A DNA stretch of 64,000 nucleotides from contig DYGS01000001.1 in assembly GCA_020724585.1 (NCBI GenBank), forward strand, positions 287,832 to 351,831, read 5' to 3'. A program made the translations under genes and the position numbers. Origin of the DNA: Candidatus Microgenomatus sp. (GTDB taxonomy: Bacteria > Patescibacteriota > Microgenomatia > UBA8517). The notes under the pieces were generated by a model. It did no database searches. It worked only from the letters and a program-made list of their open reading frames with translations, and was not told the DNA's origin. Positions 1 to 54,601 of the stretch are shown piece by piece (the stretch's first letter is position 1; the number at the start of each line of letters is the position of its first letter).

Positions 1-675
1 TGCTAAAAAGAGAAAATTAGATATTATCTGCGGCGGATTGCCGCTTGCACTTTGGGGCTGTGTGGCCCAAAAGACGCTTTCTCCCTTGCCAATTAAATAG
101 CCAAAACTGCCTGCAAAAAAACTAAAAATAGTTGCCCAAATTGATGCACTTTCACTTTTTGTTAATTTGTATGTTAGGAAGTAGGCTGAGGCACCAAATA
201 ATATACTGTAAAGAGTCGGAAAGATTCTAAAGTACAAATCAAGGTCAGAAAGATTAAAGTATTTACTAGCAACTGCCGGCAAAATATCAGAAAAGAAATG
301 GTAGTTGGTAAGCTTTTCCCCTGCCATAACTGGCATTTCGAAAGGATAGCCTTTTTTAATTTCATTCATCAGGGCAATATGCCAAGGGCCATCGTGGCCA
401 TGACTGCTGTAAAAAATGATATCTCCCCCTTCATTTATTGTTCCGCTTGGTGCAATTACTACCATTTGGCCGATTATTCCAATTGCAAAGACAATTATCA
501 TAATCAATGTTTGCAAATTAAATTTAATTTTTACGCTCTTAAGGTTTTTGTAAATATTTTTTTTACAGAAAAAAATGAGCAAAATAAATATCGGAATGAT
601 TAAAAAAGGAATATTTAGTACAATAAGAATGTATGAAATCAGAGTTGATAAGGAAAATGAAAATATCAAGCTCAT
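1..675 (-). CDS. Integral membrane protein; 5' end in window, runs off the left edge (partial). N-terminus uncertain: ATG at 675, 690, 501 or 465
   Basis: Hand translation of the minus strand (codon positions congruent to 0 mod 3) has no stop from 744 down to position 1, far longer than chance in AT-rich DNA. Predicted TM helices and a loop 'FYSSHGHDGPWHIALMNEIKKGYPFEMP'. Possible RBS GGAAAAG 6 nt before the ATG at 675. Not in the ORF track because it is partial. Confidence 0.4.
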   Translation of the reverse strand, partial: MSLIFSFSLSTLISYILIVLNIPFLIIPIFILLIFFCKKNIYKNLKSVKIKFNLQTLIMIIVFAIGIIGQMVVIAPSGTINEGGDIIFYSSHGHDGPWHIALMNEIKKGYPFEMPVMAGEKLTNYHFFSDILPAVASKYFNLSDLDLYFRIFPTLYSILFGASAYFLTYKLTKSESASIWATIFSFFAGSFGYLIGKGESVFWATQPQSASGNPPQIISNFLFLA

Positions 676-2282
676 TAAAAGCTTTTCCATATCAAAAGTA
701 TATACTAATTTTATTTTGTATTCTTGGCTTTTTAGTAAGATTTAATAAAATTGAGAGTCTTCCAATGTATGGCGACGAATTAACTTTAGCCTACGATTCA
801 TATTCAATTTTAAAGACAGGGATGGATCAAACTGGTCAGTATCTTCCGTTAACTACAAAAATGGGGGCAGGCAGGCCTGCGGGTTATGTTTATGCAAGTT
901 TGCCGTTTATCGCCATCTTTGGGCCAACGGAAATTGGAATTAGGATGTTATCGCTACTTTCTGGAACTATCTTAATTATTGCTGTTTACTTCCTGGCGCT
1001 TAAAATTTTTGAAAATAACGAGAATAAAGCAAAGATTGCACTCTTTGCTTCTTTTTTGCAATCAATTTCTATTTGGGACATATCCCTTTCAAAGGGAGGT
1101 TTTGAGGCACATTTTGCGCTACTGCTTGCTGCAGTTGGTGTTTTAATGTTTTTATATAGAAGATATATCTTAACGGCCCTTTTGTGGGGTATAACCATAT
1201 TTACTTATCCTACTTTCAAGTTAACACTACCTCTAATTTTTATAGTACTTATAACAACATTCAAGAAAACCACGGGCGATAAGCCTGTGGATGAATTGAA
1301 CGCTGATATGTCATCCTCGTTTAGACGGATACCCCGCCAGTATGGCGGGGAGGATGTTATATTTTATGAGGGTTATAAGAATTTAATAATAAGTAAAAAA
1401 TTTTGGGTTTCCATTTTAGTTCTACTATTTTTTACAGGAGTTTCACTTTTTGAAACATCAAAAGGTTTATCCGAATCTAGATTTTTAAGCATCAGTATTC
1501 TAACTAATAAAGAGATAGAGCAGCGAATAATTCAAAAAATAAATAACCAAAGATTTTTGTCTCCAATGCCTGAGGTTGTTGATAAATTATTTTTTAATAA
1601 ACCATTCGAATACACAAGACTTTTAATTGATAATTATGTTGAGAATTTTAATTTTTCTTACCTTTTTTTAAGGGGAGATAGAAACCCAAGACATAATCCA
1701 ACAGAATTCGGCAGTCTGTATTTGATTGAATTTGTAACTATTCTGATTGGAATCACCTCCATTTATAAAAAAGATAGAAGGAATTTTATTTTTTTAGTTT
1801 TTTGGATATTAATAACTCCGCTTGCAACCATGCTGATGGGTCAAACCCATGCCCTAAGAAACGGTTTTATGCTGCCGCCATTAATATTAATATCAGCCTA
1901 TGGAATTTATAGTTTGAGGATGAAATCTCGATTTGTTGTCATATTATTTATATTGGTTCAATTTATGATAGGGATTTATTATATAAACTCTTACATACCG
2001 GTTAAATTTGCAGATTTTTGGTCAGCAGAGGCTAAAAATGCCACTATCTTGGCAAATCAAAGCCTTAACAAATATGACAAAATCGTAATCTCATCTAGAA
2101 TAAATGACATAGAGTATGCATATCCAGCATATTCAAAGATTGATCCATTTTTAGTTATATCGAACTATGGCAAATTTCCAAAGGTGTATGGTAGGGTGAT
2201 AATAGATGATGATTTAGAAAAATATAAATCTTTTGATAGTGTAGTAATAATAAGTGAGGACTCGATATTTAAGAAAAAATGA
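657..2282 (+). CDS. GT-C membrane glycosyltransferase, PMT/ArnT-like (GT39/83 family), paralog 1 of 4
   Basis: N-terminal TM helix then 'YGDELTLAYDSYSIL' (DE loop-1 motif) and multiple further TM segments. Aligns with the paralogs downstream. AAGGA RBS before the ATG at 657 (the track's 633 start is probably too early). Confidence 0.65.
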   Translation: MKISSSLKAFPYQKYILILFCILGFLVRFNKIESLPMYGDELTLAYDSYSILKTGMDQTGQYLPLTTKMGAGRPAGYVYASLPFIAIFGPTEIGIRMLSLLSGTILIIAVYFLALKIFENNENKAKIALFASFLQSISIWDISLSKGGFEAHFALLLAAVGVLMFLYRRYILTALLWGITIFTYPTFKLTLPLIFIVLITTFKKTTGDKPVDELNADMSSSFRRIPRQYGGEDVIFYEGYKNLIISKKFWVSILVLLFFTGVSLFETSKGLSESRFLSISILTNKEIEQRIIQKINNQRFLSPMPEVVDKLFFNKPFEYTRLLIDNYVENFNFSYLFLRGDRNPRHNPTEFGSLYLIEFVTILIGITSIYKKDRRNFIFLVFWILITPLATMLMGQTHALRNGFMLPPLILISAYGIYSLRMKSRFVVILFILVQFMIGIYYINSYIPVKFADFWSAEAKNATILANQSLNKYDKIVISSRINDIEYAYPAYSKIDPFLVISNYGKFPKVYGRVIIDDDLEKYKSFDSVVIISEDSIFKKK

Positions 2283-3922
2283 AATTTAAAGAAAATCTAT
2301 TAATATTCTTAGTCTTATTACTATCGTTAATAATTCGTGTTTATGGCATCGGTAAAATTCCGCCATCTCTAAACTGGGATGAAGTTTCAATTGCCTACAA
2401 TGCCTACTCAATTTTAAAAACAGGTCGTGACGAATGGGGAGAATTTTTACCTCTCCATTTTAGATCGTTTGGTGAATACAAGCTTCCTGTACAAATTTAT
2501 GCTTCAATTCCTGCTATTTATGTGTTTGGGCTTAATGAGTTTGGGGTTAGGATAACACCTGCAGTTTATGGTGTTTTAACAGTATTTTTACTTTATTTAT
2601 TGGTCCAAGAACTTTTTAAAAGAAATGAAATATCACTAATTAGTGCTTTTCTACTTGCAGTATCACCATGGCATATACAACTAACGAGAGGTTCGTTTGA
2701 ATCTTCATTTTCTCTTTTTTGGTTTTTACTTGGACTACTACTTTTGTATAAAGGATTTAAGAACAAAAAATTAATTTTGTTTTCAATGGTTCCTTTCGCT
2801 ATCTCTGTTTATACCTATAATACCGCCAGGGTTTTTGTACCGATGTTTTTGTTTGTTTATTATCTTTTAAATTTAAAGTTCTTTTTAAAAAATATTAAGT
2901 ATTTTATTTTCAGTACTTTAATTTTTGTTGTTCTAATGATTCCACTTATTCCTTTTGTTTTGTCGGGTGAAGCTTCGGCAAGATATAAATTGGTTAGTAT
3001 CACAGACGATGCTGGCCTTATTCCAAGAATTGAGGAGAGAAGAAATAATTCTAATTTGCCGGAAATTGTAACTAAACTAATTCACAATAGATACACCTAC
3101 AACACATATTATTTTAGTCTTAACTATTTGTCTCATTTTACTCCTGATTTTCTATTTATAAGCGGTGCAGGCCACAGGCAACACCATGTCCAAGGGGTTG
3201 GCCAGTTGTATTGGATCCAAGCTCCATTTTTAATTTATGGACTTTATCTTCTTCTAAAGAAGAAAGAAGAAAATTTAAAGATGGTTATTCCCTGGATGCT
3301 TCTTGCTTATGTCCCAGTTTCAATGACTAACGATAGTATTCCTAATGCCTTAAGGACATTAATTTCTGTCCCTACCTACCAAATATTAACAGCTTACGGC
3401 ATGTTTTATTTCTTTAGCATCTTAAAAAATCGAAGAGTAAAAATATTAGCAGTTTTACTGTCGATATTGATGTTTGTAATTAATTTTGGAATTTATTTAA
3501 ATAATTATTTTGTAAAATATCCAGTTAACTATTCACGCGACTGGCAGTATGGGTATAAAGAAGTTGTTGACTATATTAAAGAAAATCAGGATAAATATGA
3601 TTTAATTGTTTTTAGCAGACATTATGGTGAACCACACATTTTTACACTTTTCTATTTAAATTATGATCCGCAAAAGTTTCAAAATTCTTCCAACCTAGAA
3701 AGATTTGAAACATACGATTGGGTCAGGGTTTTAAGATTTGATAAATATTATTTCCCAGATTTAGGAGATGAAGGTACAAAGTATAATGATATTGTTAAAG
3801 AGAATCCAGACAAAAAGATATTATTCATTGGTAAAAGTGGTGATTTCCCAGAGAATGTAAAGATATTAGAAAGGATTAACTTTTTAAACAATGAACCAGC
3901 ATTCGAAATTGTCGAAAATTGA
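2279..3922 (+). CDS. GT-C membrane glycosyltransferase, PMT/ArnT-like, paralog 2
   Basis: 'SLNWDEVSIAYNAYSILKTGRDEWGEFLPLHFRSFGEYKLPV' closely matches paralogs 3 and 4. ATGA start/stop overlap with the upstream gene. Confidence 0.7.
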   Translation: MKFKENLLIFLVLLLSLIIRVYGIGKIPPSLNWDEVSIAYNAYSILKTGRDEWGEFLPLHFRSFGEYKLPVQIYASIPAIYVFGLNEFGVRITPAVYGVLTVFLLYLLVQELFKRNEISLISAFLLAVSPWHIQLTRGSFESSFSLFWFLLGLLLLYKGFKNKKLILFSMVPFAISVYTYNTARVFVPMFLFVYYLLNLKFFLKNIKYFIFSTLIFVVLMIPLIPFVLSGEASARYKLVSITDDAGLIPRIEERRNNSNLPEIVTKLIHNRYTYNTYYFSLNYLSHFTPDFLFISGAGHRQHHVQGVGQLYWIQAPFLIYGLYLLLKKKEENLKMVIPWMLLAYVPVSMTNDSIPNALRTLISVPTYQILTAYGMFYFFSILKNRRVKILAVLLSILMFVINFGIYLNNYFVKYPVNYSRDWQYGYKEVVDYIKENQDKYDLIVFSRHYGEPHIFTLFYLNYDPQKFQNSSNLERFETYDWVRVLRFDKYYFPDLGDEGTKYNDIVKENPDKKILFIGKSGDFPENVKILERINFLNNEPAFEIVEN

Positions 3923-3924
3923 AT

Positions 3925-4566
3925 ATGAAAATTTTTGAAATATACAAAAAATTTGGCATACCACCTAACTTGCAACAGCATATGATTTTGGTTGCCGGAG
4001 TTGCAGAATTCATTGCTAGAAACTGGAAAAATGGCCGAATCGATAAAAACAAATTAATAAAGGCTTCATTAGTACATGACTTGGGTAATATAGTAAAGTT
4101 TAATTTTGATAAATACCCCGAATTTCTGGGGGATGAAGTAAAAAATATTAATTATTGGAAAGAGAAACAAGAAGAAATTATTAATAAATATGGTAGGGAT
4201 GACCATGAGGTTACACAAAGAATGTTAAATGAAATAGGATTAGATAGAGAGTCAATCGAAGCCGTTTCAGCTAAGAGTTTTGCAAACTCAATTGAAACAG
4301 CAAATTCAAACAATTGGTATTTAAAAATACTTTTATATTCAGACATGAGGGTGTTACCATTTGGTGTATGCACCATAGAAGAGCGATTGGAGGATATTAT
4401 GAAAAGAATGCCCCAATATTATACAAGACCAAATATTAACGATTTATTAAATGCATGTAGACAGGTGGAGTCAGAAATACAACAAAATATGAGTTGTGCT
4501 ATTGCAGAAATTAATCAACAAAATATAAATAAATCAAATAAAGAATTTATGGAAATGGAAATATGA
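3925..4566 (+). CDS. HD-domain phosphohydrolase-like protein
   Basis: 'HMILVAGVAEFIA...LVHDLGN' matches the H...HD metal-binding signature. The track start 3919 is TTG, so the in-frame ATG at 3925 is used. Confidence 0.5.
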   Translation: MKIFEIYKKFGIPPNLQQHMILVAGVAEFIARNWKNGRIDKNKLIKASLVHDLGNIVKFNFDKYPEFLGDEVKNINYWKEKQEEIINKYGRDDHEVTQRMLNEIGLDRESIEAVSAKSFANSIETANSNNWYLKILLYSDMRVLPFGVCTIEERLEDIMKRMPQYYTRPNINDLLNACRQVESEIQQNMSCAIAEINQQNINKSNKEFMEMEI

Positions 4567-5918
4567 AAAAATTAACCAACTTTTTTAAAAGTAATATAGT
4601 TTTGGTTTTAATTTGTCTTTTATTTTTAGTAACTAGAATTTATAGAGTTGACTCAATACCGGAATCCGTTTATTGGGATGAGGCATCAATTGGATATAAT
4701 GCTTATAGTATATTGTTGACAGGAAAAGATGAGTGGGGAGAATTTTTACCACTTCACTTCAGAGCCTTTGGTGAATTTAAATTACCTGTTTATATTTATT
4801 CAGTAGTTATATCTGAATTCTTTTTTGGATTAACAAATTTTGCTATAAGGCTACCTGCAATAATATTTGGTTTACTTTCCGTAATAGGAATATATTTTGT
4901 CACATTAAGACTTACTAATAATCGTACACTTTCGCTTTTAAGTTCTTTTACTTTTTCTATTACTCCTTGGTTTTTTATATTCTCACGGACAGGTTATGAG
5001 GCAACAGCAGGTTTAGCATTTTTTATATGGTCTTTGTATTTTTTGATTTTATCTTTTCAAAATTACAAATTATTAATACTGTCAACAATGTTATTCATTG
5101 TATCGATGTATAGTTATAACAGTTTTAGAATATTATCACCATTAATTTTGGGACCATTTCTAATATACTTTTTACTAAAAAAGAAATTTGTACATGTTTT
5201 AATACCTATTATTTTTATACTTTTAAGTATATTACCGATATATAAGCTATATAGTAAAGACTCGGGACTGGCCAGATTTAACACTGTTGGATCAAATAAT
5301 TATATAAGTAATTTTTTAAAAAACTTCTCACCTACATATTTATTTTTAGAAGGAGATATTAATCCAAGAAGCCAAGTACCAAAGCACGGCCAAGTCTATT
5401 ATTTAGATAGTTTATTTATAATTTTGGGGGTTTTATATATCTTAAAAACTAAAAACCTAAAACTATATTTTATATTAATGTTCCTTTTGTTAGCTCCGAT
5501 ACCAGCAAGTATTACTAAAGAAAATCCACACGCATTGCGTGCTATTTTAACGAGCCCAATACTTTCAGTCATATCTGCAATGGGAATATATTTTGTTTCA
5601 AAAAACAATAGATTAATATTGGTATTTATATCAGTATTGTATTTGTTGTTTTTTGGAAATTATTTTTATAGATTCATTAATGAATACAATAATATTTCTT
5701 CAAGTGCGTGGCAGTTAGAATATAAAGAAATATTTAAAAATCAAAAAAGTGGATGTATATCAGATGAATTTGCACAGCCATATATATTTGCACTTTACTA
5801 TAATAAATTTGATCCAAATGAATTTGTTACAACTAAAAAGTTAAATCCTGTTTCCGATTGGGGTTTTTCTACAGTCAAATCTTTTGGCAATTTTGAATTT
5901 AAAAAAGAGTGCAGATGA
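4563..5918 (+). CDS. GT-C membrane glycosyltransferase, PMT/ArnT-like, paralog 3
   Basis: 'SVYWDEASIGYNAYSILLTGKDEWGEFLPLHFRAFGEFKLPV'. ATGA overlap with the HD gene. Confidence 0.7.
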   Translation: MKKLTNFFKSNIVLVLICLLFLVTRIYRVDSIPESVYWDEASIGYNAYSILLTGKDEWGEFLPLHFRAFGEFKLPVYIYSVVISEFFFGLTNFAIRLPAIIFGLLSVIGIYFVTLRLTNNRTLSLLSSFTFSITPWFFIFSRTGYEATAGLAFFIWSLYFLILSFQNYKLLILSTMLFIVSMYSYNSFRILSPLILGPFLIYFLLKKKFVHVLIPIIFILLSILPIYKLYSKDSGLARFNTVGSNNYISNFLKNFSPTYLFLEGDINPRSQVPKHGQVYYLDSLFIILGVLYILKTKNLKLYFILMFLLLAPIPASITKENPHALRAILTSPILSVISAMGIYFVSKNNRLILVFISVLYLLFFGNYFYRFINEYNNISSSAWQLEYKEIFKNQKSGCISDEFAQPYIFALYYNKFDPNEFVTTKKLNPVSDWGFSTVKSFGNFEFKKECR

Positions 5919-7540
5919 GGAAAATAATAATATATCTATCACTAGCAGTTATTGTTGGCATCGCCGCTTTTTTCAGACTCTATAATGTTTCAACTAATCC
6001 GCCATCATTAACTTGGGATGAGGCTGCCGTTGGATATAATGCATATACAATTTTAAATTGGGGAAAAGATGAATGGGGTAATAACTATCCATTATTTTTT
6101 AAATCATTTGGTGATGATAAAAATCCAATTCATATTTATTTAACAATTCCATTTATTGCATGTTTTGGTTTAAATGATTTTGCAGTAAGGCTGCCGGCAG
6201 CTATTTTTGGGGTACTTAATGTTTTAATAATATTTTTTGTTGCCAGACAATTAACTAAAAGTAATATAATTTCGCTTTTTTCTAGTTTATTTCTGGCAAT
6301 CTCTGCTTATAACATTCAATTTTCCAGATTTAATCATGAACTTAATTTTGCGATATTCTTCTTTCTTTTGGGCCTATACTTTTTCTTAACGGCGGTAAAT
6401 AGCGATAAAAAATATTTATTGCCGCTTTCTTTTATGTCCTTTGGTTTGGATTTATTTACATATCCAAGTGCAAAGGTGGTAACACCAATACTTATATTTT
6501 TTTTAATTTTATTAAACATTAAAAAACTTTTAAAAAATATAAAGATTTTTGCAATTAGTATTTCTGTTTATCTATTCTTTGTTGGAACAATTATTGTAAA
6601 TCCCGAGCTTTTAGGAACTGCAAGACTTGAACAAAATCAAATAAAAGAGGAGCTAATTATCAATACTAATTTATATCAAAAAACTAATAGTCTTTTATTG
6701 GGTAAGGCAGAAATAGTTTTTGAAAGATATTTAAAATATTATCAAAGTGACTTTTTATATTTAACTGGAGATAAAAATCCCAGACATTCAGTACAAGCCT
6801 TTGGTACATTTTATAAATTCCAAATACCACTTTTAATTATTGGTCTTCTGTATTTAATATATGCAGTTATAAAATACAAAAACTACAATCTTCTTTTAAT
6901 ACTTCTTTGCTTTTTTATTGCTCCGCTTCCTGGTGCAGTTAGTAGTGATATGCCTCATGCATCAAGATCAATGTTTATTACATTTAGTCACTACTTACTC
7001 ATTGCTATGGGTGTATTTGCAATTGCTAGTTTGTTTAAAAATTTTTACTATAAAATTTTAGCTGTTGTAGTAATAGTTATTCTAACTGCATTCAACTTTT
7101 ATAACTACAATAATTATTACTATAGCGAATATAAAAATAAATATTCAGTTGAGTGGATTTATGGAATGAAAGAAATTATTGAAGAAGCCAAAAAAGATGA
7201 ATACTATCGTGTATATATTACAGACTCTAGAATGCAGCCCTATATCTTTGCCCTTTTTTACAATCAAACTAGCCTGCCTGATTTTCTCAAAACTGTTAAG
7301 TACAATGAAACACAAAGTAAACCACACAATTTAGTTAGAAGTTTTGATAAATATAGATTTGTTTGGAATGAATATGAAATTGTCCCAAATCAAAAAGTTT
7401 TGTTTGTTGTTAAACCTAGTGTTTATGATGGACTTTATTTTAAAAACGACTTTAAAGTGGTGAAAGTGATAAAATATCTAAACAATATAGATGCATTTTA
7501 TTTAATTACTGGAAAGGAAGAAATAAAAAATGAAGAATAA
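5915..7540 (+). CDS. GT-C membrane glycosyltransferase, PMT/ArnT-like, paralog 4
   Basis: 'SLTWDEAAVGYNAYTILNWGKDEWGNNYPLFFKSFGDDKNPI'. ATG at 5915 overlaps the upstream stop (ATGA); the track's 5909 start is GTG. Confidence 0.7.
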   Translation: MRKIIIYLSLAVIVGIAAFFRLYNVSTNPPSLTWDEAAVGYNAYTILNWGKDEWGNNYPLFFKSFGDDKNPIHIYLTIPFIACFGLNDFAVRLPAAIFGVLNVLIIFFVARQLTKSNIISLFSSLFLAISAYNIQFSRFNHELNFAIFFFLLGLYFFLTAVNSDKKYLLPLSFMSFGLDLFTYPSAKVVTPILIFFLILLNIKKLLKNIKIFAISISVYLFFVGTIIVNPELLGTARLEQNQIKEELIINTNLYQKTNSLLLGKAEIVFERYLKYYQSDFLYLTGDKNPRHSVQAFGTFYKFQIPLLIIGLLYLIYAVIKYKNYNLLLILLCFFIAPLPGAVSSDMPHASRSMFITFSHYLLIAMGVFAIASLFKNFYYKILAVVVIVILTAFNFYNYNNYYYSEYKNKYSVEWIYGMKEIIEEAKKDEYYRVYITDSRMQPYIFALFYNQTSLPDFLKTVKYNETQSKPHNLVRSFDKYRFVWNEYEIVPNQKVLFVVKPSVYDGLYFKNDFKVVKVIKYLNNIDAFYLITGKEEIKNEE

Positions 7541-8405
7541 AAAGGTTTTCTTGTCTGTTGTTTTGGCAACAAGAAATGAGGAAGAAAATATATCCAGATG
7601 CCTTGAGTCAGTTAAGGATATTGCGAGTGAGATAATAATTTACGATGAATATTCAAAGGATGCCACAGTTTCTATTGCAAAAAAATATGGTGCAAAAGTT
7701 TTTCTCGAACCCCATCATGACATTTTTCATATAACCAAGCAAAAGGCTATAGATAAAGCGACTGGAGAATGGATATTGCAGCTAGATGCAGATGAAGTTG
7801 TAACACCAGAACTCTCTCGAGAGATTCTTAAAATTACAAATTCTAAATTACAAATTACAAATACTAACCTTTTATTTTTAAGACATCAACAACTTATAGA
7901 AGCACGAGATGGCAAGATTGGCAAGGATAGTGGAGAGGTTATTGCTTATTTTATACCTAGAAAAAACATGTTTTTAGGTAAACCCTTAATACATGCAGGC
8001 GTATATCCCGATGGTGTTATCAGATTATTTAAAAAAGGTTATGCCAAGTGGCCATGCAAATCTGTACATGAACAAATGGAGATAAAAGGTAGAGTAGGTT
8101 GGCTTAATAATGATTTACTGCACTTCGATTCACCAACATTAAAGCGTTACTTCATGAGATTAAATAGATATACAGACCTTCAAGCTCAAGAACTCAAAAC
8201 AAAAAAGGTTTCAAAGGGCCTTTTTCGGTTTTTACAATATACTATATACTATCCTCTATATACTTTTGCCAATTTATATATAAGACATAAAGGTTTTTTA
8301 GATGGTGTAAATGGTTTTCTTTGGAGTTTGTTTTCCTCTTGGCACTTCCCAATTGCTTATTTTAAATACTTAACAGATCCTTCCAGCAAGAAGGCGTATC
8401 CGTAG
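7530..8405 (+). CDS. Glycosyltransferase family 2 (GT-A fold)
   Basis: 'VVLATRNEEENI...LQLDADEVV' (DxD); typical GT2 N-terminal domain. Confidence 0.7.
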   Translation: MKNKKVFLSVVLATRNEEENISRCLESVKDIASEIIIYDEYSKDATVSIAKKYGAKVFLEPHHDIFHITKQKAIDKATGEWILQLDADEVVTPELSREILKITNSKLQITNTNLLFLRHQQLIEARDGKIGKDSGEVIAYFIPRKNMFLGKPLIHAGVYPDGVIRLFKKGYAKWPCKSVHEQMEIKGRVGWLNNDLLHFDSPTLKRYFMRLNRYTDLQAQELKTKKVSKGLFRFLQYTIYYPLYTFANLYIRHKGFLDGVNGFLWSLFSSWHFPIAYFKYLTDPSSKKAYP

Positions 8406-8415
8406 ACTAGTCTAC
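8397..8415. promoter_or_regulatory. Palindrome TATCCGTAGACTAGTCTAC (perfect 14-bp core GTAGACTAGTCTAC) at the convergent junction between the GT2 gene and abiEii; related to the repeats at 52847 and 53300
   Basis: Read directly from the sequence. Shares TATCCGT and ACTAGTCTAC with the 22-bp repeat flanking the TrpR-like gene. Overlaps the GT2 stop codon (TAG within gTAGac). Confidence 0.5.
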
Positions 8416-9063
8416 TGAACCAAATTTTGCAACTTTTTTAACCTCTTCTAGCAAAAACCTCTTAATAACTTCAGGGTTTATATCTTTATCAACATATTCG
8501 ATTCTATAGTTGTATATATCGTTCCAATAAATAAGTTGTTCTAAAAACAACTTTTTAGAAAAATCGTTACCAAATTTTTTTAAACAATTTATAATTAGTT
8601 TCTCCAAGGTTACATGATTTTCTTTTAGAATAAAATATAAATCAACATAGTCTCGCCATTTAGGTCTCCTTCCTTGTATAAAAGCTTTATTGCAAGCAAT
8701 ATCTTGTATACTCATGAGATTTATATCATTACTCTTTATTACTGGGAACATGCTTTTATAATCATCTAAAAAGAATGTAAGGTTTACACCATTTTGAGTA
8801 ACCACATCTAATTGATCTTGGGTATCAAGAGTTTTGTAAGAATTTGCTCCAAAAGTATCCTTAACTTTTTTCCAGATATACTTTGAAATTGGCTCATTTA
8901 CAAAAAAGTCAAAATCGTAAGATTTCCTATGCCCAATTTGAAGTGCGAGAGCTGTTCCTCCACCCAAAACTCCATATTGGCTGAAATCTTTAAGTTTTTT
9001 AAATACTTCTAGTCTTTTGTTGTCTAATGTATCTAGGAAAAGTTTTGACATATCTTTTTTCAT
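8407..9063 (-). CDS. abiEii: Nucleotidyltransferase AbiEii/AbiGii-family toxin (type IV TA / abortive infection)
   Basis: 'YGVLGGGTALALQIGHRKSYDFDFF' matches the AbiEii (DUF1814) GGTAL...R.S.D.D motif near the N-terminus; about 220 aa. Confidence 0.6.
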   Translation of the reverse strand: MKKDMSKLFLDTLDNKRLEVFKKLKDFSQYGVLGGGTALALQIGHRKSYDFDFFVNEPISKYIWKKVKDTFGANSYKTLDTQDQLDVVTQNGVNLTFFLDDYKSMFPVIKSNDINLMSIQDIACNKAFIQGRRPKWRDYVDLYFILKENHVTLEKLIINCLKKFGNDFSKKLFLEQLIYWNDIYNYRIEYVDKDINPEVIKRFLLEEVKKVAKFGSVD

Positions 9064-9322
9064 CTAATGGTTTGCTTATTTCAAGCAAAACATTTTTACT
9101 AAAATTATAGCCTTGGGGTGTGTAGTCTTTTTCAGGGTATTTTTCGAAAGATTCTCGTATTTCATTGATTGTGTAATTTTTGAAAAGCCAAACTAGATGA
9201 TCCCAGGTGCCATAAGCCAAAACTTGATGGATTACATAGGCTTTGTTTTTGATAAAATCAAAATTATTAATATCAACACTCCATAAAACACCTTGAAGGT
9301 TAGTAGGTATTTTTGATGTCAT
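8999..9322 (-). CDS. Small protein upstream of and overlapping abiEii; putative cognate antitoxin/partner (no recognised domain)
   Basis: 107-aa ORF that overlaps abiEii by 65 nt in another frame, i.e. an operonic pair. Shorter than the canonical AbiEi antitoxin. Confidence 0.4.
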   Translation of the reverse strand: MTSKIPTNLQGVLWSVDINNFDFIKNKAYVIHQVLAYGTWDHLVWLFKNYTINEIRESFEKYPEKDYTPQGYNFSKNVLLEISKPLDEKRYVKTFPRYIRQQKTRSI

Positions 9323-48814: not shown

Positions 48815-48861
48815 ACACAACTTCCTATCTTCTATCTATTATCCAAAATAGGAAGTTGTGT
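48815..48861. terminator. Bidirectional terminator: perfect 14-bp stem (ACACAACTTCCTAT/ATAGGAAGTTGTGT) with a 19-nt loop, between convergent genes, T-tracts on both sides
   Basis: Inverted repeat 48815..48828 / 48848..48861 read from the sequence; followed by TTTATT on the plus strand and preceded by AAAACTTA (T-tract on the minus strand). Confidence 0.7.
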
Positions 48862-48879
48862 TTATTGCCCCGCGTGGTA

Positions 48880-49251
48880 TTATCCGGCGCCGAGTAGGAA
48901 GAACAAAATGGCGCTCAGGATAAGCTTGCTCTGATTGACCACTCCTTCTGCGGTGACCGAGTTCGCCATTCCTTGAGCGAGTTTCAGCGAAATCCATTCC
49001 CAAAGCGGGAGGAGTCCCAGAAAGACACCGAGGAATAGCGCGTAGCATCCACAGCCAGAGCGTCGTGCGTCCTTGCTCACTATTGTGACGATGATGCCGA
49101 TGACCATGAACACGACCCAGATCCACCACGACGCCTTGAAAAACCATGTCTCAACGGCGACGAGTTGATCGAGGTAGTTATCCCACCAGATGACTCCGGT
49201 GAGGTTGTCTTGCGCCATGAACAGCGCAATCAAAGCGGACAGGTAACTCAT
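48880..49251 (-). CDS. Small integral membrane protein encoded by a GC-rich (foreign-looking) segment
   Basis: ATG at 49251 with GGAGG 4 nt upstream; 3–4 hydrophobic segments. The roughly 400-bp segment 48867..49270 is markedly more GC-rich, with GCG/CGC/GGC codons, than everything around it. Confidence 0.55.
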   Translation of the reverse strand: MSYLSALIALFMAQDNLTGVIWWDNYLDQLVAVETWFFKASWWIWVVFMVIGIIVTIVSKDARRSGCGCYALFLGVFLGLLPLWEWISLKLAQGMANSVTAEGVVNQSKLILSAILFFLLGAG

Positions 49252-49357
49252 TTTGCCTCCAATGTGCAAGTTAAATTTAGTCTTTATAAGACTATGGGGT
49301 GTAGTGTACAGAGAGAGAGAGTAAAAGTCAAGTTCGGTATGATAAAATCAATTTAAT

Positions 49358-51396: not shown

Positions 51397-52499
51397 AGAT
51401 AGTTATAGACGCTAGACTGTATGGGACAAAGCACACTGGTAATGGTAGATATACTCAAAATTTAGTCGAAAATTTAACTAAAATAGACTCAACCAACACC
51501 TACTATATTTTGCTCCGTAAAGATGATTACGAATCATTAAATTTTCCTAAAAATTTTGTAAAAATACTAGCGGATTTTAAACATTATACTTTTAAGGAAC
51601 AATTTTTATTGCCAATAATTATATATAAAATAAAACCTGATATTGTTCACTTTCCTCATTTTAATGTCCCCATTTTTTATTTTGGAAAATTTATTGTGAC
51701 AATACACGACATGATTATGCATAAAAGTAAGGGGGGCGAAGCAACTACAAGGCCATTTCCAATTTATCAAATTTGGAGATTGGGGTACTATTTGGCATTT
51801 GCAAAAGCTGTATATTTTTCAAATTTAATTATTTGCCCAACAAATGTCGTAAAAGACGATTTATCTAGTTTTTATAAAATCAACAAAGATAAAATAAAAG
51901 TTACATATGAGGGAATCGACACTTCAACTAATCAAACCGATTTTAAAGCTGATAATTTGGGTAAATATATTTCATATGTTGGAAATGCTTACCCACATAA
52001 GAATTTAAGAAGACTAATAAAGGCTTTATCTATATACAACAAAAAAAATAAATTAAAAATTAATCTTGCTATATCAGCGGCTCGAAATGTATTCATTGAA
52101 CGAATTGAAAAATTAGCTAAAAAATACAAAGTACAAAAAAACCTAAAAATATTAGGCTATGTCCCTGATAATCAATTAATGTCTTTTTATAATAAATCTA
52201 TTGCTTTTATTTACCCAACATTAATTGAAGGATTTGGTTTACCTGGTTTGGAGGCAATGAGAGCTAAAACACTTGTTTACTCATCGAATATAGATGTACT
52301 AAAAGAAGTCTATAAAGACAATGTAAAGTATTTTAATCCAAAAAGTGTAAAAGAAATTGTCAATTCTATAAATGACGCAGTTCATTTGAATGAAGCTGAT
52401 AGGCAAAAAATAATCAGTAAGGCATATGAATTTACTAAAAACTATTCCTGGCAAAAAATGGCGAAAGAAACGCTAAATATTTACCAGATGGTTGTATAA
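51393..52499 (+). CDS. Glycosyltransferase family 4
   Basis: 'EGFGLPGLEAMRAKTLVYSSNIDVLKEVYKDNVKYFNP'. Confidence 0.7.
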   Translation: MKIVIDARLYGTKHTGNGRYTQNLVENLTKIDSTNTYYILLRKDDYESLNFPKNFVKILADFKHYTFKEQFLLPIIIYKIKPDIVHFPHFNVPIFYFGKFIVTIHDMIMHKSKGGEATTRPFPIYQIWRLGYYLAFAKAVYFSNLIICPTNVVKDDLSSFYKINKDKIKVTYEGIDTSTNQTDFKADNLGKYISYVGNAYPHKNLRRLIKALSIYNKKNKLKINLAISAARNVFIERIEKLAKKYKVQKNLKILGYVPDNQLMSFYNKSIAFIYPTLIEGFGLPGLEAMRAKTLVYSSNIDVLKEVYKDNVKYFNPKSVKEIVNSINDAVHLNEADRQKIISKAYEFTKNYSWQKMAKETLNIYQMVV

Positions 52500-52506
52500 T
52501 ACGCAT

Positions 52507-52845
52507 ATGGGATTTGAAGATAATCTAGAAAAAGGAAGTAGTTCAAAACAAGCAAGGTTGTATAAAATGACATTGCAAAAGGCAGTTGACATGGGAGAAT
52601 ACGATCCAAAATTTTTATCTACTTTTGCAGAATGGCACACTTTAAGTAGACATGTGCAGTTTCAATTTATAAGAACGGCCATTGAAAATAGAAGAAAACA
52701 CCTAGTTGTGCAGTATGCAGAGGTTAATAACATGTTGGACTTCTCTAAAAAACCTCATTTAGCAGATGCTCTTCGAAATATCGAAAGACAACTGAAGATT
52801 ATTGAAAACGATAGAGAAAAACTATTTGTAGAATATTCAAAATAG
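52507..52845 (+). CDS. Hypothetical protein (start uncertain: track TTG at 52492, ATG at 52507 preceded by TATAAT, possibly leaderless)
   Basis: ORF only. Confidence 0.3.
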   Translation: MGFEDNLEKGSSSKQARLYKMTLQKAVDMGEYDPKFLSTFAEWHTLSRHVQFQFIRTAIENRRKHLVVQYAEVNNMLDFSKKPHLADALRNIERQLKIIENDREKLFVEYSK

Positions 52846-52846
52846 T

Positions 52847-52868
52847 TCCGTGTACTAGTCTACGGATA
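52847..52868. promoter_or_regulatory. 22-bp imperfect palindrome TCCGTGTACTAGTCTACGGATA (copy 1), containing the TrpR-operator-like GTACTAGT core; immediately 3' of the TrpR-like gene
   Basis: Perfect direct repeat of 53300..53321; read from the sequence. Confidence 0.6.
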
Positions 52869-52872
52869 CAGG

Positions 52873-53283
52873 CTATCTTTTTACATCTTTTCGTCTGAAT
52901 CCGGTAAATTTAACATATTTTTTCCAGTTTAGAGAATTAACCTTCTCGATATATGCTTTACTATAATATTCGTTCTCAACCTTCTCCTCTCTTTGATTTA
53001 TCATATCAAAACACTTTGGGAACCTGCTTTTGAGTTTTTGCACCTGAAGTATTGTTTGTTTGCCGACTTTCAATATTTTTCTAATTTCATCATATGTTAA
53101 ATCTTCATCTAGTAGTTTAGCAATTATAATTCTTCTGCCAATTTTTATTCTTTCGTCGCTTGTTAATATGCCTTTTATAATTTGATCTACATCTGAGCCA
53201 TCTTTAGCGGCCAAAAAAACTGACCTTAGTTTATTAAATACTTCAAATATTGCCTCTTTTTCTAAAAAACTGTATCTTCTCAT
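52873..53283 (-). CDS. TrpR/YerC-family helix-turn-helix regulator
   Basis: 'LTSDERIKIGRRIIIAKLLDEDLTYDEIRKILKVGKQTILQV' resembles the YerC/YecD TrpR-like HTH region. Confidence 0.5.
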   Translation of the reverse strand: MRRYSFLEKEAIFEVFNKLRSVFLAAKDGSDVDQIIKGILTSDERIKIGRRIIIAKLLDEDLTYDEIRKILKVGKQTILQVQKLKSRFPKCFDMINQREEKVENEYYSKAYIEKVNSLNWKKYVKFTGFRRKDVKR

Positions 53284-53299
53284 TAAATAATTTCTTGTA

Positions 53300-53321
53300 T
53301 CCGTGTACTAGTCTACGGATA
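53300..53321. promoter_or_regulatory. 22-bp palindrome TCCGTGTACTAGTCTACGGATA (copy 2), 17–38 bp upstream of the TrpR-like gene start; candidate autoregulatory operator
   Basis: Identical to 52847..52868. Confidence 0.6.
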
Positions 53322-53422
53322 TATAGTAGCATATGTTGGTGGATGGGTTAAAATTAGCTAGAATATATTATTAGAGGAAGAATATGTAAGATGATATTAA
53401 ATAATAAAGGTTTTGGTTATAC

Positions 53423-54601
53423 ATGATGACAAGTAATTATAAAAAGACAATAATTGTTTTCAACAAAGTAGCTATAGTATATGACAGGGTGAATAAGTTT
53501 GGGGGGGCAGAGAGGGTTTTATTAACTCTTCATGAGATGTTTCCTGATGCTCCTCTTTATACTTCTGTTTATGATAAAAAAAATGCATCTTGGGCCTCAT
53601 GTTTTCCTAAAATTTATACCTCATTTTTACAGAAATTTAAATTTGTACGAAATCATCACGAATTGTTTGGTTGGCTAATGCCAATTGCGTTTGAGCAGTT
53701 TGATTTTAGTCAATATGACTTGGTTATTTCAGTAACTAGCGAGGCGGCAAAAGGTATTATTACTTTACCTAAAACAAAACACATATGTTATATGCTTACT
53801 CCAACAAGATATTTATGGAGCGGATATGATTTTTATTTAAATAATCCACCAAATATATTTAAATATATTCCTTTTTTTAAGTTATTATCAAAGCCTATTT
53901 TGGGATATTTAAGGTGGTGGGATAAAGTTGTTGCCAAGAGACCTGACAAAATTATCGCAATTTCAACAGAAGTTCAAAAAAGAATTAAAAAATATTATAA
54001 CCTTGAAAGTGAAATAATATTTCCTCCCGTCGATTTGCGGCATTTTAAAAAATCGCTCGTTGGAGGGCTCCGCTCAGAGAGTCGAGCAGCCGCTCGCAAT
54101 TTTTTGGAAAATGCCTATTCAAATAATTATTATTTTATTCATGGCCGGTTTGAACCATATAAAAAACTAGATTTGATACTTTCAATTTTTAAGAAGAATA
54201 AATTGCCTTTAGTTGTTTCAGGTAGTGGATCAGAATTTGAGAGGCTCAAAACAAATAGGTACAAAAACATTAAATTTATATCAAAGCCAAATGATCAAGA
54301 ATTAATAAATTTATATCAAAATGCAAAAGCATTTTTAATGCCGCAAGAAGAAGATTTTGGTATAACATCAGTCGAAGCTCAAGGCTTTGGCGTTCCCGTC
54401 ATTGCATATAATAAAGGTGGAAGTTTAGATACAATAATTGACGGGAAGACTGGAATATTGTTTAATGACCAGACTGTCGAGAGTTTATCAAAAGCAATTG
54501 AAAAATTTGACAGGACCAGCTTTGATAAGCAATACTTAATGACTAACGCAAAACGCTTTAGTAAAGAAAGGTTTATAAAAGAATTTATTAATATTTTATG
54601 A
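53423..54601 (+). CDS. Glycosyltransferase family 4
   Basis: 'EEDFGITSVEAQGFGVPVIAYNKGGSLDTIIDGKTGILF'. TAGAAT -10-like box about 60 nt upstream. Confidence 0.7.
   Translation: MMTSNYKKTIIVFNKVAIVYDRVNKFGGAERVLLTLHEMFPDAPLYTSVYDKKNASWASCFPKIYTSFLQKFKFVRNHHELFGWLMPIAFEQFDFSQYDLVISVTSEAAKGIITLPKTKHICYMLTPTRYLWSGYDFYLNNPPNIFKYIPFFKLLSKPILGYLRWWDKVVAKRPDKIIAISTEVQKRIKKYYNLESEIIFPPVDLRHFKKSLVGGLRSESRAAARNFLENAYSNNYYFIHGRFEPYKKLDLILSIFKKNKLPLVVSGSGSEFERLKTNRYKNIKFISKPNDQELINLYQNAKAFLMPQEEDFGITSVEAQGFGVPVIAYNKGGSLDTIIDGKTGILFNDQTVESLSKAIEKFDRTSFDKQYLMTNAKRFSKERFIKEFINIL

What the first reader, a model, noticed from the sequence alone, without database searches (positions are those of the whole stretch)
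52847..53321. TrpR/YerC-like regulator flanked by a perfect 22-bp direct repeat that is itself a TrpR-operator-like palindrome (GTACTAGT core)
TCCGTGTACTAGTCTACGGATA occurs twice, at 52847..52868 and 53300..53321. The two copies precisely bracket a 136-aa minus-strand gene whose product resembles the YerC/YecD TrpR-like HTH family. The repeat is an imperfect palindrome built around ACTAGT/CTAG, the same core recognised by E. coli TrpR at the trp operator (…GTACTAGTTAACTAGTAC…). One copy sits 17–38 bp upstream of the regulator's own start, consistent with an autoregulatory operator. The other is at its 3' end, abutting the stop of the upstream plus-strand gene. A third related site, GTAGACTAGTCTAC, lies at 8397..8415 next to the AbiE module. 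The arrangement could be a self-regulated regulator with a small local regulon, or a direct-repeat-bounded inserted cassette.
Basis: partly seen in the sequence, partly recalled or inferred. Interest (0 to 1): 0.55.

Follow-up and report, generated by a model that had tools for sequence, protein, structure and literature searches.

The report
Regulator gene bracketed by its operators
A small Trp-repressor-type DNA-binding protein of an ultra-small (CPR/Patescibacteria) bacterium has one copy of its own palindromic binding site just before its gene and one just after it. This "bracketed" layout recurs, with different site sequences, in about 40 related genes from three CPR lineages and has apparently not been described.

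Summary
TCCGTGTACTAGTCTACGGATA occurs exactly at 52847-52868 and 53300-53321 and brackets a 136-aa minus-strand gene. A related third site lies at 8397-8418. None is expected by chance.

The protein belongs to the TrpR family by Pfam score and by predicted fold. It scores below the NCBIfam cut-offs for TrpR and for YerC/HisR.

In 28 of 34 Levybacteria homologue loci a 20-bp palindrome lies 0-16 nt (a few 25-37 nt) before the ATG, and a second copy lies 5-32 nt after the stop. The palindrome sequence differs between genomes. It tracks the recognition helix, and the two copies in one genome stay alike (17.2/20 identical; flanking DNA 7.5/20). The pair accompanies the gene in at least five genomic contexts. 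All 9 loci sampled from three more distant lineages (window-clade relatives, WWE3, Parcubacteria) show the same bracket with unrelated palindromes.

The repeats are therefore cognate operators. They are not a target-site duplication, a terminator or a generic repeat. The upstream copy most likely mediates autorepression. The role of the conserved downstream copy is unknown; my best guess is a ~450-bp DNA loop and/or a transcription roadblock. I rate it a new variant of a known kind, with moderate to high interest.

The parts
52873..53283 (-). 136-aa TrpR-family DNA-binding protein (called REG in this report). It has six helices equivalent to TrpR helices A-F, then a C-terminal beta-hairpin (residues 111-126) and a conserved basic tail (YTGFKRKDVKR-like).
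   Evidence: ORF. Pfam PF01371 34.4 bits against a cut-off of 27. Profile hits to PDB 3KOR, 3FRW and 3G1C at E about 1e-6. AF2 pLDDT 87.5. Foldseek TM (target-normalised) 0.71-0.80. Family alignment.
53300..53321 (.). Upstream operator copy. The 20-bp palindromic core is 53300-53319. It ends 16 nt before the REG ATG and lies about 100 nt upstream of the divergent GT4 gene (53423).
   Evidence: Exact repeat. The equivalent site lies 0-16 nt (a few 25-37 nt) before the ATG in 28 of 34 Levybacteria loci. A -10-like hexamer scoring at least 5 of 6 lies within the 16 nt upstream of the site (plus its first 4 nt) in 48% of loci.
52847..52868 (.). Downstream operator copy, identical in sequence. It sits between the convergent stop codons of REG (52873-52875) and ORF 52492-52845.
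   Evidence: Exact repeat. The equivalent site lies 5-32 nt after the stop in 28 of 34 Levybacteria loci whatever the orientation of the next gene. The same holds in WWE3 and Parcubacteria relatives.
53322..53390 (-). Candidate REG promoter region (inferred). One candidate is TTAACC(53351-53346)-17 nt-TACTAT(53328-53323), which abuts the operator. The other is CTTACA-17 nt-TATATT (53390-53362).
   Evidence: The first is my own reading (8 of 12 consensus matches). The second is listed (9 of 12). Neither has been tested.
8397..8418 (.). Third, lone site. The core 8399-8418, TCCGTAGACTAGTCTACTGA, is 1 mismatch from the fully symmetric consensus TCCGTAGACTAGTCTACGGA. It overlaps the convergent stop codons of a GT2 gene (7530-8405 +) and AbiEii (8407-9063 -).

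Best explanation
The 22-bp repeat is the cognate DNA operator of the TrpR-family protein (REG) encoded between the two copies. A REG dimer recognises the 20-bp dyad yCGT-n-G-w-CT|AG-w-C-n-ACGr.

The upstream copy abuts or overlaps the gene's -10 element and transcription start. Bound REG there represses its own transcription (negative autoregulation).

The downstream copy, just past the stop codon, is a second cognate operator. It belongs to the gene's own regulatory architecture and not to the neighbouring genes. Most likely, dimers bound at the two sites, 442-534 bp apart, cooperate through a DNA loop that encloses the gene and so stabilise repression. In addition, or instead, they may act as roadblocks that insulate the gene from transcription entering or leaving it.

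A few further sites make a small local regulon, often among surface-glycan genes. Examples are window 8399-8418 and a perfect copy 15 nt upstream of a Bac_transf operon in L170.

Shown: the sites exist, they are conserved in position, they co-vary with the recognition helix, and they travel with the gene. Inferred: binding, repression, looping and roadblock.
For: 1. Family and fold. Pfam TrpR is above cut-off. The AF2 model has pLDDT 87.5 and its best Foldseek matches are 3FRW, 3G1C and 3KOR. Characterised TrpR/HisR proteins bind 20-bp palindromes, and about half of hisR genes carry a site upstream of themselves (PMC9413887).

2. Position. 28 of 34 Levybacteria loci have the locus-specific palindrome 0-16 nt (a few 25-37 nt) before the ATG and again 5-32 nt after the stop. 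There are almost no other copies within +/-3 kb.

3. Concerted evolution. Upstream and downstream copies are 17.2/20 identical within a genome. Adjacent flanks are 7.5/20 identical, and copies from different genomes 12.2/20. No permutation in 10,000 reached the observed value.

4. Site class follows the recognition-helix clade:
- VGKQT..QV goes with CCGT[AG][GT]ACTAGT..ACGG.
- VGKNT goes with CGTTGACTAGACAACG.
- VGNNTVM goes with CGTATTCTAGTTTAC.
- VGSSTIMLV goes with CCCGTCAATCGATTGACGGG.

5. Paralogues in one genome have orthogonal sites: L015 and L026, and the WWE3 pair L167 and L168.

6. A relative with 71% protein identity (L164) keeps the identical 20-mer, including its asymmetry, at both ends.

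7. The bracket is present in all 9 loci sampled beyond the GTDB Levybacteria set: 3 window-clade relatives, 3 WWE3 and 3 Parcubacteria loci.

8. A -10-like hexamer scoring at least 5 of 6 lies just upstream of 48% of upstream sites but only 8% of downstream sites.

9. The palindromes are complementary through the dyad centre. A dimeric DNA binder needs this; an RNA hairpin loop does not.

10. The operator spacing of 442-534 bp lies close to the length at which DNA looping probability is maximal. This rests on established polymer physics and is an inference.
Against: There is no binding or expression data of any kind.

Spacing shows no helical phasing. The AF2 monomer shows no obvious tetramerisation module, because the long helix 89-110 corresponds to TrpR helix F. 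Looping is therefore unsupported structurally.

4 of 34 Levybacteria loci (L021, L027, L036, L039) have no site near the stop codon. In L024 and L040 it lies about 100 nt downstream. The downstream site is therefore not indispensable.

In co-directional contexts the downstream site lies 8-372 nt (mostly 51-200 nt) before the next gene and could instead control that gene.

The genome-wide regulon could not be determined.
Confidence: 0.6

Rival explanations
1. Both copies are cognate REG sites, but they work as protein roadblocks, that is as conditional terminators or insulators, and not through looping. Bound REG stops RNA polymerase that enters the gene from the upstream operon or from a convergent neighbour. 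It also stops polymerase leaving the gene. This makes REG an autonomous unit inside long arrays of genes that lack terminators.
For: - No intrinsic-terminator-like sites occur around the gene.
- In the window clade REG lies antiparallel inside a unidirectional array of more than 25 genes.
- The downstream copy and the lone third site both sit exactly between convergent stop codons.
- The sites hug both ends of the ORF in every context.
- There is no helical phasing.
Against: A roadblock after the stop codon does not change REG output. Why it should be conserved specifically at this gene, and not at other genes, is unexplained. In many loci the neighbours are co-directional, and blocking them has no obvious benefit. 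Nothing has been tested.
Confidence: 0.22
2. The downstream copy is an ordinary operator for a neighbouring promoter, either of the next gene or of an unannotated antisense or small RNA. REG is then a simple local regulator with two or three targets, one of which happens to lie next to its 3' end.
For: - In the commonest context, CCA-adding enzyme - REG - YqeY, the downstream site lies about 60-130 nt before the next co-directional gene.
- In L012 and L030 the similarity between the copies extends into a -10-like stretch.
- In L021 the second site lies 681 nt away, in front of yqeY.
- Extra sites in L167 and L170 lie in front of neighbouring genes.
Against: - The site is anchored to REG's stop codon (5-32 nt), while its distance to the next gene varies from 8 to 372 nt.
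- It persists where the next gene is convergent: the window, L004, L005, L164-L166, L011, L019, L020, L028, L033, L167, L170 and L172.
- Only 8% of downstream sites have a good -10 immediately upstream.
Confidence: 0.1
3. The palindromes act at the RNA level, as 5'-UTR and 3'-UTR stem-loops of the REG mRNA. They could affect stability, processing, termination or translational control, possibly with the protein bound to them.
For: - They delimit the ORF tightly.
- In many loci the right arm of the upstream site (ACGGA) occupies the Shine-Dalgarno position.
- 8 of 25 downstream sites are followed by a T-rich stretch.
Against: - The predicted hairpins are weak: -5 to -8 kcal/mol, with z-scores of -0.4 to -1.8 that are not significant.
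- No terminator-like sites and no Rfam hits were found.
- Complementarity and sequence conservation run through the centre (CT|AG), which would be the loop.
- The mismatches do not behave as G-U pairs on the sense strand.
- A -10 element abutting the site implies that the transcript starts inside the palindrome.
- The TrpR fold is a DNA binder.
Confidence: 0.05
4. The unit is, or was, a mobile cassette. The repeats would be a target-site duplication, att-like or Xer/dif-like recombination sites, or transposon ends bound by the encoded protein.
For: - The site-gene-site unit is found in at least five unrelated genomic contexts.
- An ABC-2 gene pair sits upstream of the unit in some genomes and downstream in others.
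- A lone site lies next to a mobile-looking AbiE module.
- Terminal sites of a transposon would also co-vary with the protein that binds them.
Against: - There is no recombinase or transposase. Only a 136-aa HTH protein lies between the sites.
- There are only one or two copies per genome.
- Context is stable within each protein clade down to about 54% identity.
- Each site is itself a palindrome, and relative orientation is not fixed (better direct in 15 loci, better inverted in 7).
- The sites differ completely between genomes, unlike Xer sites.
- A target-site duplication would derive from the target and would not track the recognition helix.
Confidence: 0.03

Closest known systems
HisR (B. 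subtilis YerC) and YerC/YecD-type TrpR-family repressors of Firmicutes (PDB 3G1C, 3FRW, 3KOR)
   Same: These are the best sequence-profile and fold matches. They are small all-helical HTH dimers with a 20-bp palindromic operator, and about half of them have a site upstream of their own gene (PMC9413887).
   Different: - REG scores below the NCBIfam YerC/YecD cut-off (20.1 against 42.2 bits).
- REG carries an extra 25-30 aa C-terminal beta-hairpin and basic tail.
- The motif differs: yCGTnGwCT|AGwCnACGr against cacTTTAnnnnnnTAAAgtg.
- No his genes lie nearby.
- A conserved second operator after the stop codon is not reported for HisR.
E. coli Trp repressor TrpR and the trp, aroH and trpR operators
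   Same: Same Pfam family and fold. TrpR is autoregulated through an operator at its own promoter. CTAG is a key operator element.
   Different: - REG scores 23.2 bits against the 67.25 cut-off of the TrpR equivalog model.
- TrpR operators have two CTAGs flanking the dyad (TGTACTAGTTAACTAGTACA). Here a single CTAG sits on the dyad and invariant GT/AC positions lie at +/-6-7.
- trpR has no known downstream operator (my own knowledge).
- The effector is unknown, and CPR bacteria generally lack Trp biosynthesis (my own knowledge).
Auxiliary-operator looping systems (lac O1-O2 about 400 bp apart; gal OE-OI; lambda OL-OR flanking cI; purR with operators downstream of its start)
   Same: Two cognate operators a few hundred bp apart act on one promoter. 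In lambda the repressor gene itself lies between the operator sets.
   Different: Those proteins have defined tetramerisation or octamerisation modules. Here none has been shown. In those systems the distal operator is not positioned at the stop codon of the regulator gene. The comparison rests on my own knowledge and was not tested.

Membership tests
TrpR family (Pfam PF01371) | Sequence match to the family HMM above the curated cut-off | tested here: met
   34.4 bits against a cut-off of 27, E = 2.4e-8, residues 20-86.
TrpR family (Pfam PF01371) | TrpR-like all-helical fold with the HTH formed by helices D and E | tested here: met
   AF2 pLDDT 87.5, with helices 9-25, 29-39, 42-59, 64-71, 75-87 and 89-110. 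Foldseek top hits are 3FRW, 3G1C, 3KOR, 1TRR and 1ZT9, with target-normalised TM 0.6-0.8 and probability 1.0.
TrpR family (Pfam PF01371) | Binds an 18-20-bp palindromic operator as a dimer | tested here: inconclusive
   A conserved 20-bp palindrome that co-varies with the recognition helix fits this. Binding itself cannot be tested with these tools.
TrpR proper (NCBIfam TIGR01321, equivalog) | Score above the equivalog cut-off | tested here: not met
   23.2 bits against 67.25.
YerC/YecD = HisR (NCBIfam TIGR02531) | Score above the family cut-off | tested here: not met
   20.1 bits against 42.2. Some databases label the Parcubacteria relatives YerC/YecD.
YerC/YecD = HisR | Operator in front of his biosynthesis or transport genes; histidine as co-repressor | tested here: not met
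   No his genes occur in 81.6 kb around the gene or in any of about 45 loci. The neighbours are glycosyltransferases, the CCA-adding enzyme, YqeY, GatCA, SecDF and FtsEX. The effector cannot be tested.
Transposon or insertion cassette with target-site duplication | A recombinase or transposase is encoded; the flanking direct repeats derive from the target; empty sites exist in relatives | tested here: not met
   Only a 136-aa HTH protein lies between the repeats. The repeats track the protein and not the context. The copies match better inverted than direct in 7 of 25 loci. Relatives at 54-71% identity have the unit at the same place. Empty sites were not searched for exhaustively.
Intrinsic (Rho-independent) terminator | A stable GC-rich hairpin followed by a U-tract | tested here: not met
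   No terminator-like sites were found in 52300-53900. Hairpins are -5.7 to -8.3 kcal/mol with z-scores of -0.7 to -1.8. Only 8 of 25 downstream sites are followed by at least 5 T in 8 nt.
Genome-wide intergenic repeat (REP or BIME-like) | Many copies dispersed in intergenic regions, unrelated to one gene | tested here: not met
   There are 3 copies in 81.6 kb, 2 of them at this gene. In other genomes there are essentially only the two flanking copies within +/-3-10 kb.
Looping repressor (LacI or lambda CI type) | An oligomerisation module that lets one complex hold two distant operators | not testable with these tools
   Only a monomer model is available. Whether the C-terminal beta-hairpin and tail mediate contacts between dimers is unknown.

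The most novel reading that the evidence does not exclude
CPR/Patescibacteria possess a superphylum-wide class of 'self-bracketed' TrpR-type transcription factors. Each gene would be a portable operator-gene-operator cassette in which the protein closes a ~450-500-bp loop around its own gene, or walls the gene off with roadblocks. That would give autonomous, insulated, low-noise expression in genomes with few terminators and few regulators. Paralogues would be kept orthogonal by co-evolving sites, and some members would control surface-glycan clusters. A conserved operator at the stop codon of the regulator's own gene would be a regulatory design not described for any bacterial transcription factor family.
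Probability: 0.35. Interest if true: 0.75.

Novelty: new variant of a known kind. Interest (0 to 1): 0.6.

Why it matters
CPR bacteria are uncultured, have tiny genomes and encode very few regulators, and almost nothing is known about how they control transcription.

This analysis provides:
- a ready-made, testable protein-operator pair for one of their commonest transcription factor families, with dozens of natural specificity variants (recognition-helix sequence against palindrome sequence);
- a conserved and unexplained architectural rule, an operator at both ends of the regulator's own gene;
- a lead connecting some members to cell-surface glycan clusters.

If the downstream operator acts by looping or as a roadblock, it would be a compact natural insulator or autoregulation module. 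Such a module would interest bacterial gene-regulation research and synthetic biology.

Tried and rejected
1. Metagenome-wide scan for CCGTAGACTAGTNNAC, meant to map the regulon in the 644-kb source contig. Only L101 (another bracketed REG locus) and L088 (a lone perfect palindrome upstream of obg) were informative.

2. Generic palindrome finder on the flanks. AT-rich chance palindromes confused it, so I replaced it with matching of upstream against downstream flanks and with curated site scans.

3. Test of whether the downstream copy is the more symmetric 'anchor' site. There is no difference: 7.28 against 7.36 symmetric pairs of 10, Wilcoxon p = 0.88.

4. Helical phasing of the operator spacing. 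None is seen; values spread from 442 to 502 bp.

5. Rfam over the whole window and a sensitive search around the gene. No hits.

6. Terminator reading. Rejected.

7. Target-site duplication or mobile cassette. Rejected.

8. A weak extra site in L166 (6368, 4-5 mismatches) between ManC and Bac_transf. By my estimate about 0.6 such matches are expected by chance in 20 kb, so I did not count it.

9. An apparent 8-nt similarity (tcttgtat) between the REG and AbiE upstream regions. I judged it chance.

10. Literature searches for YerC, TrpR, TrpR-like, Patescibacteria, CPR and Saccharibacteria. They found only the HisR paper and no description of this architecture.

Full report
OBSERVATION. The 22-mer TCCGTGTACTAGTCTACGGATA is present exactly at 52847-52868 and 53300-53321. 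With up to 3 mismatches the only other match in the 64-kb window is at 8397-8418. Shuffled controls give 0.00 expected matches. The two copies bracket ORF 52873-53283 (-), 136 aa. The upstream copy ends 16 nt before the ATG. The downstream copy starts 4 nt after the stop codon and 1 nt after the stop of the convergent ORF 52492-52845. The 20-bp core is an imperfect palindrome with 8 of 10 symmetric pairs.

THE PROTEIN. It matches Pfam Trp_repressor above the curated cut-off (34.4 against 27 bits). It is below the NCBIfam cut-offs for TrpR proper (23.2 against 67.25) and for YerC/YecD (20.1 against 42.2). A family profile finds the solved TrpR-like structures 3KOR, 3FRW and 3G1C at E about 1e-6, and E. 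coli TrpR at about 0.02-0.03. The AlphaFold model (pLDDT 87.5) has six helices that match those structures by Foldseek (target-normalised TM 0.71-0.80, probability 1.0). It also has a C-terminal beta-hairpin (111-126) and a conserved basic tail that the solved proteins lack. YerC of B. subtilis is HisR. TrpR-family repressors bind 20-bp palindromes, and about half of hisR genes have a site in front of themselves (PMC9413887).

SOURCE AND CONTEXT. The identical protein lies on a 644-kb JGI contig. Named homologues are from Patescibacteria, mostly Levybacteria. The gene lies antiparallel inside a long + strand array of glycan-synthesis genes: Wzy_C, GT2, GT4 | REG | GT4, ManC, Bac_transf, DUF4012.

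COMPARATIVE RESULT. I fetched 37 homologue loci from GTDB genomes and read the flanks of each gene. Nearly every one has a palindrome just before the ATG and a near-copy just after the stop.

Curated scans, together with the flank reading, show:
- 28 of 34 intact loci have the upstream site 0-16 nt (a few 25-37 nt) before the ATG and the downstream site 5-32 nt after the stop.
- Two more loci (L024, L040) have the second copy about 100 nt downstream.
- Four loci (L021, L027, L036, L039) have no site near the stop codon.
- There are almost no other copies within +/-3 kb.

The sequence differs between genomes. Examples are CCCGTCAATCGATTGACGGG, CCAGTTTTCTGGAAAACTGG, CCGTTGACTAGACAACGG and CAGTAATCTAGATTACTG. 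The two copies within one genome stay alike: 17.2/20 identical, against 7.5/20 for the adjacent flanks and 12.2/20 between genomes. No permutation in 10,000 reached the observed value.

Site classes follow the sequence of the recognition helix. Folding all sites into half-sites gives yCGTnGwCT|. T at -6 is invariant in 100 of 100 half-sites, and G at -7, C at -2 and T at -1 are nearly invariant. A relative with 71% protein identity keeps the identical 20-mer, asymmetry included, at both ends. Paralogues in one genome (L015 and L026) have distinct sites.

CONTEXT INDEPENDENCE. Clustering of neighbouring genes shows at least five contexts:
- CCA-adding enzyme - REG - YqeY - SecFD, with an ABC-2 pair on either side of REG in different genomes;
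- MurT/GatD - REG - GatC - GatA;
- REG convergent with M23/FtsX/FtsE;
- the glycan cluster of the window clade;
- several others.

Both sites accompany the gene in all of them, whether the next gene is co-directional or convergent. The downstream site is anchored to REG's stop codon (5-32 nt), whereas its distance to the next gene varies from 8 to 372 nt.

BEYOND LEVYBACTERIA. An exhaustive profile search finds a small core family (49 clusters at E <= 1e-10) within about 600 related clusters.

A sister family occurs in WWE3/Katanobacteria, including two paralogues that carry the same NCBI locus-tag prefix and therefore belong to one assembly. It shows the same bracket with unrelated palindromes:
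- L167: ATATCCGCATGCGGATAT
- L168: CCTACATCCCTAGGGAGGTAGG
- L169: CTCTACCACTGTACAGTGGTAGAG

A larger Parcubacteria family of 142-160 aa does too:
- L170: GGATTATGATATATCATAATCC
- L172: TTACCACATATCGATATGTGGTAA
- L171: TATGATACATCATAAC-type

With the three window-clade relatives, all nine loci sampled beyond the GTDB Levybacteria set are bracketed. Operator spacing is 442-534 bp throughout. Extra copies also occur. L170 has a perfect one, inside a 38-bp perfect palindrome, 15 nt upstream of a Bac_transf-GT4 operon. L167 has one about 55 nt upstream of a divergent gene.

WHAT THE SITES ARE NOT.
- Not a terminator. No terminator-like sites were found. Hairpins are weak and not significant. Only 8 of 25 downstream sites have a T-rich tail.
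- Not a known RNA. There are no Rfam hits.
- Not a dispersed repeat. There are three copies in 81.6 kb of the source genome.
- Not a target-site duplication or a mobile cassette. There is no recombinase. The sites track the protein and not the target. In 7 of 25 loci the two copies match better inverted than direct. The location is stable within clades.

MECHANISM (inferred). The sites are the protein's cognate operators.

The upstream one has a -10-like hexamer scoring at least 5 of 6 just upstream of it in 48% of loci, against 8% for the downstream one. In the window, TTAACC-17 nt-TACTAT abuts it (my reading). It therefore probably covers the transcription start and mediates autorepression, as in trpR and hisR.

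The downstream operator is the unusual feature. Its persistence in convergent contexts argues against it being merely the operator of a neighbouring gene. I favour cooperative binding through a DNA loop that encloses the gene. The spacing is close to the length at which looping probability is greatest, according to established polymer theory. A roadblock or insulator role is the main alternative, and the two are not exclusive. Neither is supported by phasing or by an identified tetramerisation module.

The third window site (8399-8418) is 1 mismatch from the symmetric consensus. It lies between convergent stop codons at the end of a PMT/GT2 glycan operon, next to an AbiEii/DUF6922 module. The palindrome contains TAG in both orientations, so ORFs ending inside it may be a trivial consequence of that.

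COMPARISON AND NOVELTY. The protein belongs to the TrpR family. It is not TrpR proper and not HisR/YerC. It represents CPR-specific subfamilies with a C-terminal extension, a different operator register and no his or trp context. Autoregulation by a palindromic operator is ordinary for this family. The conserved second operator at the stop codon is not described in the literature I could search, and neither is its presence across three CPR lineages with co-evolving, orthogonal specificities. I rate it a new variant of a known kind, with interest 0.6.

LIMITS. There are no experimental data. The regulon was sampled only locally. The counts of bracketed loci rest on my curated site calls. The looping and roadblock models are untested.

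Noticed in passing
window 8407-9322 (-): An AbiEii toxin (218 aa, PF08843) plus a DUF6922 protein (107 aa). This module is one of the few minus-strand islands in an otherwise + strand glycan array. The lone third palindrome overlaps its stop codon.
   Followed up: partly
window, whole: CTAG is under-represented (105 observed against about 186 expected from base composition), and so is ACTAGT (8 against about 22). The operator core is therefore a rare word in this genome.
   Followed up: no
L008/L030 versus L013/L017/L023 (GTDB Levybacteria loci): An ABC-2 ATPase and permease pair sits between the CCA-adding enzyme gene and REG in some genomes, and between REG and yqeY in others. The flanks of the bracketed unit are therefore rearrangement points.
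   Followed up: no
L088 4380-4405: A perfect 26-bp palindrome, GGTACCGTAGACTAGTCTACGGTACC, of the same class as the window's site. It lies about 90 nt upstream of an obg GTPase gene and downstream of a cold-shock-protein gene, on a 5.3-kb groundwater contig with no REG gene. It may be a distant regulon member in a relative.
   Followed up: partly
L170 2285-2322: A 38-bp perfect palindrome, CGCACCTCGGATTATGATATATCATAATCCGAGGTGCG, that contains the local REG site. It lies 15 nt upstream of a Bac_transf-GT4 operon in a Parcubacteria genome. Together with the window clade and L172, this links the family to surface-glycan clusters.
   Followed up: partly
L167 and L168 (WWE3 assembly GCA_002774775; shared locus-tag prefix COV24); L015 and L026 (Levybacteria MFPJ01): Two paralogues in one genome, each bracketed by its own palindrome, and the two palindromes are unrelated. 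This implies orthogonal specificities.
   Followed up: partly
L025, L037: REG homologues that appear truncated or frameshifted (99 and 112 codons before a stop, with homology continuing downstream). L037 still has recognisable sites on both sides; L025 has at least the upstream one.
   Followed up: no
window 52492-52845 (+) and 48839-49269 (-): Small ORFs without any Pfam or NCBIfam hit. The 112/117-aa ORF convergent with REG has a 96-aa counterpart in L164, but none in L165 or L166.
   Followed up: partly
window 633-7540 and L161 190-7650: A run of paralogous large membrane glycosyltransferase-like genes (PMT_2, PTPS_related, GT87). It precedes the third site and shows an unusually large investment in glycan synthesis for a 0.64-Mb genome.
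   Followed up: no
window, whole: No Rfam family reaches its gathering score anywhere in the 64 kb, so no tRNA or riboswitch was detected by Rfam. No terminator-like site was found in the 1.6 kb scanned around the gene.
   Followed up: no
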